A DNA stretch of 64,000 nucleotides, from contig CM102285.1 of NCBI GenBank assembly GCA_046563655.1, forward strand, positions 11,718,001 to 11,782,000, in the 5' to 3' direction. The translations under genes were made by a program, and so were the position numbers. This document shows positions 3,608 through 37,771 of this stretch, one piece after another. Every line of letters starts with the position of its first letter. Within the stretch, counting starts at the first letter, position 1. The stretch comes from Yuukianura sp. NJ FZ-2021. Taxonomy: Eukaryota. The notes under the pieces were generated by a model. The model was not told the DNA's origin, ran no database searches, and saw nothing but the letters and a program-made list of their open reading frames with translations.

Positions 3608-13688
<10,081 letters not shown>

Positions 13689-33300: not shown

Positions 33301-34288
33301 TTGAAGCTCGGTCTGCGTTTCATATCTGATTTGAGTGCACAAGTAATGCAACGATTGTACAAATCGTAGACTATATCTCGTTGAACCGGTAGCGGTAAGT
33401 CTTCTAGAGATCGATGGTTGTGTAGAAAAAGTTTGATGTAAGCGTCAAAGGTTTCAAGCGTTTTGGGCCGCCCGTTGATCCAAAGGAAGTCAATACAGTC
33501 TCTAAGCGAAGCCAAATTCCACATTCCAGGATGTGTTTCATCTTCCAACCGATTCTCTATTTCAACTTGTGAATTTAATGGAGACGAGATGCAAAGAATC
33601 TTGTACTTTCGCTTGTCCCCCGTATAAAAAGTTTCATCGAAAAGGACCGACACGGAGCGCTGAGTGATCGCACGTTGACTGGTGTGTTGAATCGCTTCAC
33701 CGGTGAAAATGTCAATCGGCATCTCCGAAGTCGTGTCCAAGATGAGAGTATTTTCGTTGTACTCGACATTAATCTCAGTCAGTGTTCTGAAATTCCATTT
33801 AGGGTGAAGCTGATTGACTTGCAAGTAGTTGCTGGAAGATGTGTTTGCATGAATGCTCAAGTTGCTACAGGAAGAATCTCTGCTCAGACTTCGATTTGGA
33901 CTAGTGGAGCTTGCTATTGACCTATCGTCAGCCTCAGGAATGCTGGAGCAACGTGTAGCAAGTTCTTGACTCGTTCGTATCGGTTTCAAAATGTGATGAG
34001 TAAAATCTTCGAGGGTGAATGTATGTTTTGGTAGTGATTCCATCCGTGGAACACAAATTAGCCATTTTTCCTCGACACACTTGCTGAACAAATCCAAGTA
34101 ATTCTGTAGAAATGCTTTGAAAAATGGATTTTGATTCAAGTCTTCATCATATTCATGTGTCATCATTGGCGTGTCACTGGAAAACCAGAAAGAAAATCAG
34201 CATTTACTAAGCTGGGAAATAAAAAATGTACACCTTAATCCAGAATAAGGAACCAATAAACCAACCTATTCGTCAGTAAACTTGCCAT
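30348..34288 (-). CDS. ANKRD27: ANKRD27/VARP (VPS9 domain, ankyrin repeats, two Zn-fingernail motifs)
   Basis: N-terminus YDEDLNQNPFFKA; VPS9 core (TPLGKLKCL..., ISTDELLPIWVYLIIK); HPLCNCPNC and CHPLCPCVKC motifs; ankyrin repeats (ALHYAASRGHQNALLLLL, TPLHLASLNGHESCVKALIY). A short in-frame first exon at 34288-34266 (MASLLTNS) is plausible. Confidence 0.92.
32644..32786. repeat. Intronic inverted repeat, 53-bp arms (51/53 complementary), 37-nt loop
   Basis: Arm 32644-32696 AGAAGACATTGTAAAATACAAACTAAAAACCTCATTCTTTTCTCCACTCCCTC pairs with arm 32734-32786. Confidence 0.9.
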
Positions 34289-34933
34289 TTTGCAGGTTTA
34301 ACGCGAAAGCTACTTAATAAAACGCTTTACACAACTTTCGTGAGATGGTTCTTCACATTTGCGCTGGAAGACGCTGAACGACACTGATAACTGCGCTTCA
34401 GTGTCAGAGTCTACTTAAGTTTGAATTTGAGCCAGGTTTTATGTTCAAAAATCCAGATTAAGTTATATTGCAGATGTCTGAAATGCAATCAAAATAGAAC
34501 AGAACAGACAAGACAAAAGAAAATGAGACAAGCGTTGACGTTGATGCTGGTTCTGGAGGGGATTAAGTCCAGATACACAAATAGATCTTAAGAGGGTGAA
34601 TTTTGTCACAAACTGAACTAACAAACTCCAAAGATAACGTTTGGTCCATGCATGGTGAGAATGACCTACGTATCAGCGATACAGTATTTACCTAGCACAA
34701 ATTAAATAGTAATAAAGTTGAAGTTATACAGACACAGAGTGATGTTGATGTAAAAGCCTCCAATCTCTGCTGAACAAACAACACAATTGAGAGATTGAGA
34801 CCGCATGAATGACATGGATTTCAGGACGTAAAACATGCCAGATCTGAAAATATTTATTAACAAATTAATCATATACCAAAAACAAGTAACGAATTAATAT
34901 GTAAACAAATCAAGATGAGAATACTCAGCCTTC

Positions 34934-35593
34934 TTATTTAGCAACAATGTGTTGGTTCTTCAGAAACCAAGGGTAGTATTGTCCACGGCTGTCCTCTTCT
35001 GGTAATTGCGTTTCAAATGTGTTACGAATCACGTCGGCCAGTCCTCCATTTTTAGCTGCCTCTTCGAGAAGATTAAGATCAACTGTCAGCATCTTGATTA
35101 GCCCGACGTAAACTCCAAGTAAATAGGACTCTTCACTTTCAGTCTTGCATTTAGAAAATCCAAACGTGTTGTAACTCATTGACCCGACAGCGGGGAGATA
35201 GTCATCAACAACGCATTTCACCAATTCATCAATTGGTCTTTTCGGATCTCTTGAATTCTTCCAGATCTTCTTGTTGCTTTTCTCGATAGTGCGAATGCAA
35301 TGGGGTTGGTGAGTAGGCCAATGTTCGGCTTGATGTTCCTTTCCACAGTAAAATGGAACGGATGTTCCTGGAATTATGCTACAATCCCGACACTTTTTGG
35401 TTGTTTTCACCTTGCAGATCATGCATTCACCCTAGAAAAGAAATACAGTGTTAAATTAATTCAGGCTCAAACGACACTTTAAGTGGATAATGTTAAGTAA
35501 TATTCTGTGAATCCTTACCAATTCCTTTTTGTCTACTTCGATTGTTTTCTTCACTCCTTCGGTATCATCGACAAGCTTGAAATTAGCATCCAT
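34934..35593 (-). CDS. Small MYND zinc-finger protein (~190 aa, 2 coding exons) with a fungal-like C-terminal domain
   Basis: Exons 35593-35519 and 35431-34934 (phase 0, GT-AG). MYND pattern CMIC-x7-CRDC...YCGKEHQAEHWPTHQPHC. C-terminus FGFSKC...ESYLLGVYVGLI...RGQYYPWFLKNQHIV. Confidence 0.85.
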
Positions 35594-36547
35594 GTTGTAA
35601 AACCGTGGTTTTCTAAGGAAGATAACCAATGGTTGACTAATAATCTCTAACTGCCTAAGATGGTTTAAGCTGACACGTTTGAAGAATTTACACTTGCAAA
35701 TTCAGCATATGTCAACTAAACTTGATAGTTGGATAAATACGAAGTTTTGTATGTAACACCCTTCCTAACTAAACGAACACTGAAATGTCCTCAGTGTCGT
35801 CACTCGTCAGATCAATAACCCCTTCTCCCCTTCCCTTCCCTATCAATATCGCTTCGAGACACCACTACAGTTTGTAATGTTATTACTAATAATTAGGGAA
35901 CTGCCTTACCGTAAATAAGACACAATTTTTGCTACAATTTAATTTGGAGAATGAGAATACGTACTTACCGCACCGTTGGTCTTCACCGCCGAGTACTAGC
36001 TGTTGTTCCGGAGTTGAAGTAAAGTGACCTTTTTTGACCGTATACGTTTACAAGAAATGCAGAACTTGAATTACGTATGAAACAGCTGATGTGCGGAGCA
36101 GACGGAGCGCAGAGGAGATGACAGAAGAATGAGCCAAAAGCGAGAGTCCGAGTTGAGTTGTTGCATTTGTGGAGACTGTGGAGAAGCTGCCCATAGATGC
36201 ATGACATTTAAACACTGGGAGCGACAGATGACCTTGAGGGTGACAGGCGACTGACCAAGACGAGTTGGGGCATTTTCCTGTTTCCTGAAAAGAAGGAGAA
36301 AAGAAGGATTTTAGGTAGATGCTCAACGATAATGAAGGTGTAAATTATGCTTAACTTTGCGCGATCAAGATAGTACATGTTAATATGGCTAGCAGAATCA
36401 CAAGGATCATGGAAAATACGAAACCTTCATCAGCTGAAATACCGATTTATTTACAAACGAAGACGAAAAGAGTAACGTTATTTACAAAGTGAAATAATGA
36501 AATAACACGTCCAGAGGGAAAAACGATTTAGTACCGAAGATTGCAGA

Positions 36548-37771
36548 TCAAAGTGGGTATGGAGAATATCGCTTGGCTTTGGAATTCGGTATTCCACCCT
36601 TCATCCTAATACGTCTCACGGCTTCTCGTATATGTTTCGGTTGTACTGGACCGGTTTCGCCAATTCGCTCCATTACATCAAGACCTTCAATTTACAAACC
36701 AAAGTCAAAGGTAAAACGGAATCAAATTGTTGAAAAGTAAGGCTCGAATATAGAAGCTGAAGCTGAAAACAGCTCTATCGAGAGCATTTTTCAAAGATTA
36801 CCCTCTTCTACAATTTCGCCAACAAAAACCTTCGCAATGCCTGCCATAGCTATCACAGCATTCTGTGAGACTGAATTCCCAGTTATGGTCTGCATCAACT
36901 GTGTAAAAAAAAACAGTGAATTCAATTCGATTTGATGTTCTGTTCGTTAATTCATACCCGTTTGATGGAACTTTTGGGAAAGGCGGCGCGTCGAAACATT
37001 TCATAGCGATCTAGCTGATCTTCCGTGAAGTTGGAGACTAGTACTCTAGAAAAAATATGCAGAATTAAACTAATTCGGTTCTTATTTTCAATGCTTTGAT
37101 AATATTGTTTTAATAGACTGACTCCACTGGAGTCACTCCAGCTTCAATGTACTTACTGCATCTTTTCTCGTTCTTCTTCTTCCATGTCTCGCTTCTGTTT
37201 AGCTGCTGCTTCCTTCATTTGAGCAGCTTTAATCGCCAAAGAACTCGTGGGTTTCTCTGGTGCTGTGGATGTACCAGGAGTCGGGGTAACAATGCCCAGT
37301 GATATTTCAGTCGTCTCACTTAGAGATGTACCTTCGATTTTGATTAACTAAAAAATTCAGCTTAGTTAACTCTCATGCTTACGTACACAGTTAAATGACC
37401 TGAGCCCGAAACAGCACATTAAACGGACTGGGAACTACTACACAGACACAGCACAACGAAAAAGAATAACCAAATAAACCAATGAAAGTACCACCTACAT
37501 CGTTGTCACTTCACAGTGGTCGAACGCGACCTTTTACATTCCTTCTGTCAGTATGACTTATCATTCGCTAAACGAATCGCAACCGATGACTTGAATCCTA
37601 ACTTAATGAACTTACCGAATCGGTGTTTGTTTCAAGCAGATGATTAGTCTTCGGTAGCAAGATGTCGTCGTCCTCTCCAGCAATTACAACATTCTCCGCG
37701 ACATCCGGAACATCAACAATTCCATCGTAGTCGTAGTCGTCACCTTCGCTCTTGATATCACTAAACTCCAT
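36548..37771 (-). CDS. TAF11: TFIID subunit 11
   Basis: Spliced exons give [92 protein letters not shown] (TAF11 histone fold). ATG at 37771, TGA at 36550-36548. Confidence 0.95.

What the first reader, a model, noticed from the sequence alone, without database searches (positions are those of the whole stretch)
34934..35593. Fungal-type MYND-finger gene among arthropod housekeeping genes: candidate horizontal transfer
Seen: an intact ~190-aa protein with one spliceosomal intron, between VARP and TAF11. It consists of a MYND finger plus a ~110-aa helical domain (D.LP......FGF..C....ES.LLG.Y..L.....V....L....G.L...I...FE......RG.YYPWFL.NQHI). From memory, this domain pattern belongs to uncharacterised MYND proteins widespread in ascomycete and basidiomycete fungi; I do not recognise it from animal MYND proteins (SMYD, DEAF1, ZMYND, ETO). 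Inference: a domesticated fungal-derived gene that has gained host-style introns. The flanking animal genes argue against simple contamination unless the assembly is chimeric.
Basis: partly seen in the sequence, partly recalled or inferred. Interest (0 to 1): 0.72.

Follow-up and report, generated by a model that had tools for sequence, protein, structure and literature searches.

The report
Fungal-type zinc-finger gene in a springtail
A small gene among ordinary animal genes joins a MYND zinc finger to an unnamed helical domain otherwise known mainly from fungi, so it is probably an old gene transfer, a kind of event that is already well documented in springtails and whiteflies.

Summary
The gene is real as described: 190 aa, two coding exons, an 87-nt GT-AG intron, a MYND finger and an unnamed ~105-aa helical unit, between VARP and TAF11. 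It is not contamination. Contigs of public runs bridge it to both neighbours, and the genome holds two further intact copies, one with an intron at the same place. The unit belongs to a family of 619 representatives. Of 30 clusters looked up, 4 carried an organism name: three fungi and the springtail Folsomia candida. Transfer from a fungus is therefore likely but not shown. The gene has one unit, lies outside the fungal three-repeat clade, and its nearest relatives are unnamed, so an ascomycete or basidiomycete donor is not supported; a Mortierella protein has the same build. Probable role: a non-enzymatic adaptor. A nonsense allele and a transposon insertion in other individuals suggest that it may be dispensable. 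No RNA holder was listed. Fungal transfers in springtails and fungal MYND genes in whitefly are in print. The scan had not noted this family before, though it noted other fungal-type genes in this genome.

The parts
35519..35593 (-). coding exon 1 (25 codons, ATG at 35593)
   Evidence: strong donor GTAAGG follows; an in-frame weaker donor after codon 19 is possible
35432..35518 (-). phase-0 GT-AG intron, 87 nt, ending two codons before the first MYND cysteine
   Evidence: acceptor three codons before the first Cys also in paralogue L002 and in relative L004; indels in other individuals fall in it
34934..35431 (-). coding exon 2 (165 codons and stop)
35297..35425 (-). MYND finger, ligands C28 C31 C39 C42 C54 H58 H66 C70, with a 10-residue spacer after the fourth Cys
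34937..35269 (-). unnamed helical unit (single copy; fungal repeat-type proteins carry two or three)
34853..34858 (-). AATAAA, possible poly(A) signal 76 nt after the stop
   Evidence: inferred
35613..35968 (-). possible 5'-UTR intron (GTAAGT donor at 35968, TTCCTTAG acceptor 19 nt before the ATG)
   Evidence: read from sequence; inferred, no RNA
34974..34975 (.). TA site in codon 178 where run X2 carries the two ends of a ~404-bp MITE; empty in the window
35524..35524 (-). site of a nonsense variant at codon 24 seen in one contig of run X3

Best explanation
An integrated host gene of a springtail-like arthropod whose helical unit (probably with its MYND finger) came long ago from a fungus, most plausibly a soil fungus with the one-unit form such as Mortierella has. 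It then gained an intron before the finger, duplicated (three intact copies, two broken ones) and now turns over as an accessory gene. Mechanism (inferred, about 0.55 on its own): a non-enzymatic adaptor. The MYND finger grips a proline-rich peptide of a partner and the helical unit offers a second binding surface. Shown: gene structure, linkage, copies, homology to fungal proteins. Inferred: direction of transfer, donor, expression, adaptor role.
For: Linkage: X2 record 10 spans 34010-34975 (VARP coding exon to the stop of this gene), X2 record 12 spans 35406-36869 (this gene into TAF11), X3 record 21 spans 35252-36574. GC3 0.42 against 0.34-0.43 in 5 neighbouring frames. Paralogues at 39% and 33% identity; the L003 copy pairs with F. 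candida Fcan01_06589 at 53%, support 100/99, so at least that copy predates the split from F. candida. Named clusters 4 of 30: Tulasnella, Diversispora, Mortierella, F. candida. Atlas leads are fungal clusters (0.76-0.80 for the unit, lead only; 0.91-0.94 for relative P0083). With finger and unit, a 98/93 branch parts 25 rows (repeat type, Diversispora) from 10 rows that hold the window gene, L002 and Mortierella. Repeat-type genes in L010, L012, L018, L021, L022 and L023 lie in single open frames, whereas window, L002 and L004 have an acceptor before the finger. Adaptor role: conserved columns are mostly hydrophobic or glycine; solved MYND fingers bind PxLxP-type peptides (PDB titles 5hda, 9de2); 11 of 150 representatives carry an OTT_1508-like deaminase motif in front of the same module (Pfam confirms P0040 and L009), as a targeting module would.
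Against: The Mortierella row is a long branch, so its place is unsure. Several one-unit relatives are very K/N-rich and of unknown origin. The three own copies plus F. candida are rejected as one exclusive clade (p-AU 7e-5); against named or fungal-looking rows only they are not rejected (p 0.124), so one or several entries cannot be told apart. Only 150 of 619 hits were seen. Nonsense and MITE alleles argue against a strongly needed function.
Confidence: 0.6

Rival explanations
1. Horizontal origin, but from a non-fungal microbial eukaryote or a giant virus that shares the one-unit form with fungi.
For: 26 of 30 clusters looked up are unnamed; one-unit relatives P0061, P0071, P0088, P0117, P0138, P0018 have an extreme AT-type residue bias; P0138 groups near the window gene at 89/88 in one tree. 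The F. candida paper assigns 24.6% of its transfers to protists (PMC5490193, passages).
Against: No relative in viral contigs in 3 scans (pattern-based, so insensitive), none in the viral fold library beyond the MYND finger; all 3 named non-animal clusters are fungi; the P0138 grouping is absent from the larger tree.
Confidence: 0.2
2. An old eukaryotic family inherited vertically and lost in most animals.
For: The one-unit form mixes features of repeat 1 and repeat 3 of the fungal proteins (consensus lines), which suits an old form; trees do not nest the gene in a fungal clade; the His-type finger also occurs in host MYND genes such as L039 and L042.
Against: The only named animal cluster is a springtail (1 of 30); it would need many losses; 42% identity to a basidiomycete unit (P0006) is high for a fast-turning family split at the animal-fungal divergence (inference).
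Confidence: 0.13
3. The unit is a catalytic domain, for example a deubiquitinase as reported for the whitefly fungal-derived MYND protein BtUCH19.
For: BtUCH19 is 391 aa with a MYND-type fungal kinship (bioRxiv 10.64898/2026.06.01.728072, section 5); repeat-type proteins have a median of 400 aa (47 proteins). The unit has a Cys in 67% and a His in 71% of 78 rows.
Against: That BtUCH19 holds this unit could not be tested. No UCH/USP Pfam match in the window protein or in 12 further family proteins. The window protein has Glu at the His column.
Confidence: 0.08
4. Fungal contamination or a chimeric assembly.
For: No RNA support could be had; one of the two studies may be the source of the assembly; no single listed contig spans the whole stretch.
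Against: Bridging contigs on both sides, with haplotype differences from the window; 15.3-Mb contig; host-like GC; paralogues on another contig and in F. candida; a host MITE inserted in the gene.
Confidence: 0.02

Closest known systems
Uncharacterised fungal MYND + repeated helical-unit proteins (e.g. Diversispora epigaea RHZ63871.1; forms fused behind an OTT_1508-like deaminase)
   Same: MYND finger directly followed by the same unit (hhalign 99.9%)
   Different: two or three units, mostly Cys at the sixth zinc ligand, short spacer, often intronless; the window gene lies outside their clade
One-unit fungal forms: Mortierella sp. KAF9105772.1 (MYND + unit, 144 aa); Tulasnella sp. KAG8919626.1 (two units, no MYND)
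   Same: Mortierella has the same architecture; the Tulasnella unit is the best-scoring named match (42%)
   Different: 32% identity for Mortierella; no supported sister relation to either
Folsomia candida Fcan01_06589 (OXA57400.1)
   Same: springtail one-unit protein, sister of the own-genome paralogue L003 (53%, 100/99)
   Different: no MYND finger; 34% to the window unit, so not its orthologue; its status in the published transfer list could not be seen
Bemisia tabaci fungal-origin MYND genes (six rows of Additional file 18, PMC5157087; Bta10703 = BtUCH19)
   Same: fungal-derived MYND genes fixed and expressed in an arthropod genome
   Different: BtUCH19 is single-exon, 391 aa and very close to fungi (bit score 548 in the preprint), so recent; whether it has this unit is untested
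Animal MYND proteins (SMYD/Msta, DEAF1, ZMYND10/11, ETO, PDCD2)
   Same: the zinc finger itself
   Different: none of their partner domains is found; of 30 own-genome MYND loci fetched only 2 carry the unit

Membership tests
zf-MYND (PF01753) | profile score above the curated cut-off, eight zinc ligands | tested here: met
   31.7 bits against 22.7; C28 C31 C39 C42 C54 H58 H66 C70 read from the translation
Animal SMYD/DEAF1/ETO/ZMYND proteins | SET, SAND, NHR, bromo or PWWP partner domain | tested here: not met
   Pfam scan of exon 2 at E <= 1 gives only two MYND models; exon 1 is 25 aa
Fungal MYND + repeated-unit family | homologous helical unit after the finger | tested here: met
   hhalign 99.9%, E 2.7e-36, 122 columns
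Fungal MYND + repeated-unit family | two or three tandem units | tested here: not met
   one unit, then stop
Fungal MYND + repeated-unit family | placement inside their first-repeat clade | tested here: inconclusive
   outside a 98/93 clade in free trees; AU p 0.101 (unit only), 0.043 and 0.050 (finger + unit); groups were named after seeing trees
Horizontally transferred gene | physical linkage to native genes | tested here: met
   bridging contigs X2 records 10 and 12
Horizontally transferred gene | alien index / best non-animal score above best animal score outside the lineage | not testable with these tools
Horizontally transferred gene | supported nesting in a donor clade | tested here: inconclusive
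Horizontally transferred gene | transcribed and spliced | not testable with these tools
   no RNA holder listed
UCH/USP deubiquitinases | UCH or USP peptidase profile match | tested here: not met
   none
UCH/USP deubiquitinases | papain-like fold | tested here: inconclusive
   all-helical models; fold searches list no clear match for the unit
B. tabaci fungal-origin MYND genes (BtUCH19) | same C-terminal unit | not testable with these tools
   sequence not obtainable; preprint supplements closed

The most novel reading that the evidence does not exclude
The helical unit is an undescribed eukaryotic module that arthropods took from fungi more than once (springtails long ago in one-unit form, whitefly recently in three-unit form as BtUCH19), and it carries or recruits ubiquitin-removing activity without any known deubiquitinase fold.
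Probability: 0.08. Interest if true: 0.7.

Novelty: new member of a known kind. Interest (0 to 1): 0.3.

Why it matters
As one more probable fungal gene in a springtail it is ordinary: F. candida is reported to have 809 foreign genes, about a third fungal. What is of some use is the unit itself: a family of over 600 clusters with no Pfam model and no clear solved fold, found alone, tripled, or behind fungal deaminases. The 190-aa springtail form is the smallest version with a finger and folds with high confidence, so it is a handy object for finding what the unit binds, and for checking whether the whitefly 'deubiquitinase' belongs to this family.

Tried and rejected
Word-indexed homologue searches with the single protein found nothing; with a 27-row alignment 6 proteins. 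No match in phage records, viral contigs or prokaryote genomes apart from one 30-residue match judged spurious; these pattern scans are insensitive. No Pfam model for the unit in 25 members, no solved relative by sequence (best E 0.27). Fold searches of two confident models (pLDDT 92 and 91) gave only MYND matches and weak helical-bundle rows; retroviral matrix proteins recur at Z 4.0-4.6, rmsd 3.5-5.7, 5-12% identity, which is within the range of common arrangements and was rejected as a lead. A three-copy complex prediction of the unit gave no answer, score 0.00, neither support nor evidence against. No RNA holder listed. Fcan01_06589 was not found in the F. candida supplements, but files 1 and 3 were cut and the transfer list was not visible. 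In the O. cincta supplement file 2 (cut; file 1 not searched) the 7 MYND places were SMYD/Msta-like or C9orf172-like rows. The metazoan transfer compendium had no readable supplement. Paper searches for this family found no description; the library lacks most subscription journals. The idea that the finger was supplied by a host Msta-like gene was considered: the best other own-genome match to the finger is the L002 paralogue (E 0.006), the next E 0.14, and His-type fingers occur in 7 of 150 representatives too, so it is unsupported.

Full report
Observation. The gene lies on the minus strand: exon 1 at 35593-35519, an 87-nt phase-0 GT-AG intron, exon 2 at 35431-34934, 190 aa in all. Pfam finds a MYND finger above its cut-off and nothing else. 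Flanking frames carry VPS9 + ankyrin and TAFII28 domains. An AATAAA lies 76 nt after the stop and a good acceptor 19 nt before the ATG suggests a further 5'-UTR intron (inferred).

Is it part of the animal genome? The window lies in a 15.3-Mb contig. Five public runs of two studies hold the stretch; four were laid. No listed piece spans all 4.3 kb, but X2 record 10 runs from the VARP coding exon to the end of this gene, X2 record 12 from this gene into TAF11 with 16 other letters and 23 gap letters (another haplotype), and X3 record 21 covers 35252-36574. One study may be the source of the assembly. GC3 is 0.42 against 0.34-0.43 in five neighbouring frames. Contamination is very unlikely.

Copies. 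The unit finds 3 places in the genome: the window, L002 (finger + unit, 39%) and L003 (unit alone, 33%). Two broken fragments lie beside L003 in a tandem block. L002 reads ATG, GT-AG intron, then three codons to the first MYND cysteine; metagenome locus L004 has an acceptor at the same place. Window, L002 and L004 also share a long spacer in the finger (3 of 41 fingers parsed) and a motif found in 5 of 159 proteins. Of 31 MYND matches in the genome, 30 were fetched and 2 carry the unit within about 1.5 kb.

Family. A three-row profile finds 619 representatives at E <= 0.001, of which 150 were listed. Most bear two or three detectable units, often after a MYND finger (median 400 aa for 47 such proteins); 11 of 150 have an OTT_1508-like deaminase motif in front. 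Iyer et al. mention fungal OTT_1508-like deaminases fused to a MYND finger and suggest a chromatin-related role (PMC3239186, passages); they do not describe the unit in the passages I saw. I looked up 30 of the 150: 4 carry an organism name (Tulasnella, Folsomia candida, Diversispora, Mortierella), 26 do not. The F. candida protein is the sister of L003 (53%, 100/99), which is my own evidence for a springtail-like host; earlier notes of the scan use the same wording. The Atlas points to fungal clusters, a lead only. Of 21 metagenome loci, L004 is of the one-unit type, most others are repeat-type (several only partly on their contigs), one (L024) looks spurious; fungal identity of these loci is inferred from neighbours and composition, not tested.

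Trees. In the 108-row unit tree (105 columns; one row was entered twice) the window gene sits in an open fork outside a 40-row first-repeat clade (98/93) that holds Diversispora. With finger and unit (35 rows) a 98/93 branch parts 25 rows from 10 that include the window gene, L002, L004 and the long-branched Mortierella protein. Forcing the gene into the repeat clade gives p-AU 0.101, 0.043 and 0.050: borderline, and the groups were named after the trees were seen. The own copies plus F. candida are rejected as an exclusive clade (p 7e-5), which is expected if some unnamed rows are animals; against four named or fungal-looking rows alone they are not rejected (p 0.124). Best BLAST matches of exon 2 are unnamed (L004 42%, P0019 46%, P0078 48%), the best named non-animal one is Tulasnella at 42%. 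So kinship with fungal proteins is shown, while direction and donor are inferred. Rows left out: most repeat-type hits (29 chosen by hand for the large tree, fewer for the small ones), units covering under 60 profile positions, and the 469 hits not listed.

State of the gene. Of 200 letter differences 40 were shown; 5 fall in the coding part: three silent, one Ile to Val, one nonsense at codon 24 in a single contig of X3 that X1, X2 and X4 do not show. A weaker in-frame donor after codon 19 would make that site intronic. In X2 two contigs end at codon 178 in sequences that are reverse complements of each other; these are the ends of a ~404-bp TA-flanked MITE with at least two full copies elsewhere in the genome. 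The X2 segment that bears it (34010-35435) has a head-to-tail joint and about eight times the depth of its flanks, which may be a tandem amplification or an amplification artefact. Together with the broken tandem copies this suggests an accessory gene; the evidence is thin, one contig each.

Mechanism. The model is confident (pLDDT 92): finger, a long linker helix, and a small all-helical unit. No clear fold match was found. Conserved columns are largely hydrophobic, aromatic or glycine; the one Cys/His pair is kept in about 70% of 78 rows and the window protein lacks the His. MYND fingers are peptide-binding modules (PDB titles; general knowledge). The best reading is a two-part adaptor that tethers a proline-rich partner to whatever the unit binds; in fungi the same module would aim a deaminase. 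This is inference, about 0.55. A catalytic role as reported for whitefly BtUCH19 is the rival; I read the abstract, section 5 and the first part of the discussion of that preprint; its supplements are closed and its sequence could not be compared.

What is known. F. candida: 809 foreign genes, 32.8% fungal, 24.6% protist (PMC5490193, passages; the gene list was cut from the supplement, so Fcan01_06589 may already be listed there). B. tabaci: six MYND rows among transfers of fungal origin (PMC5157087, Additional file 18; 8 of 20 files not searched). Seven paper searches gave no description of this unit or of this gene family in springtails. The scan's own notes hold nothing like it.

Verdict. 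A real, integrated, probably fungal-derived gene of a known kind of event; donor unresolved; function untested. New member of a known kind, interest 0.3.

Noticed in passing
G000:C2:8230611-8231014 (L025:1501-1904) and C4:13948443-13948846: A ~404-bp near-palindromic MITE with TA target-site duplication, Tc1/mariner-like by that sign (recalled); the same ends appear inserted in the MYND gene in run X2, so the family is polymorphic.
   Followed up: partly
window 34010-35435 in run X2: Head-to-tail joint 35435 to 34010 with depth about 52 against about 6 outside; tandem amplification or amplification artefact; the joint forms a short inverted repeat.
   Followed up: no
L064:7061-9827: Three tandem genes for a small secreted cysteine-rich protein without a Pfam match (one copy scanned), interleaved with broken copies of the helical unit.
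   Followed up: partly
window 35969-36284, minus strand: Exon-like stretch with good acceptor and donor between TAF11 and the MYND gene, rich in indels among individuals; probably a non-coding 5' exon with a short upstream ORF.
   Followed up: no
L009:2-5279 and L008: Fungal-looking locus with a long WD40 array next to OTT_1508 deaminase + MYND + three units, a context that recalls NLR-like loci.
   Followed up: partly
proteins P0083, P0159, P0051, P0088: A second unnamed ~100-aa domain without Pfam match accompanies the unit, C-terminal in three and N-terminal in P0088 (seen by eye).
   Followed up: no
window 10914-11706: Long 15-bp tandem array giving open frames on both strands.
   Followed up: no
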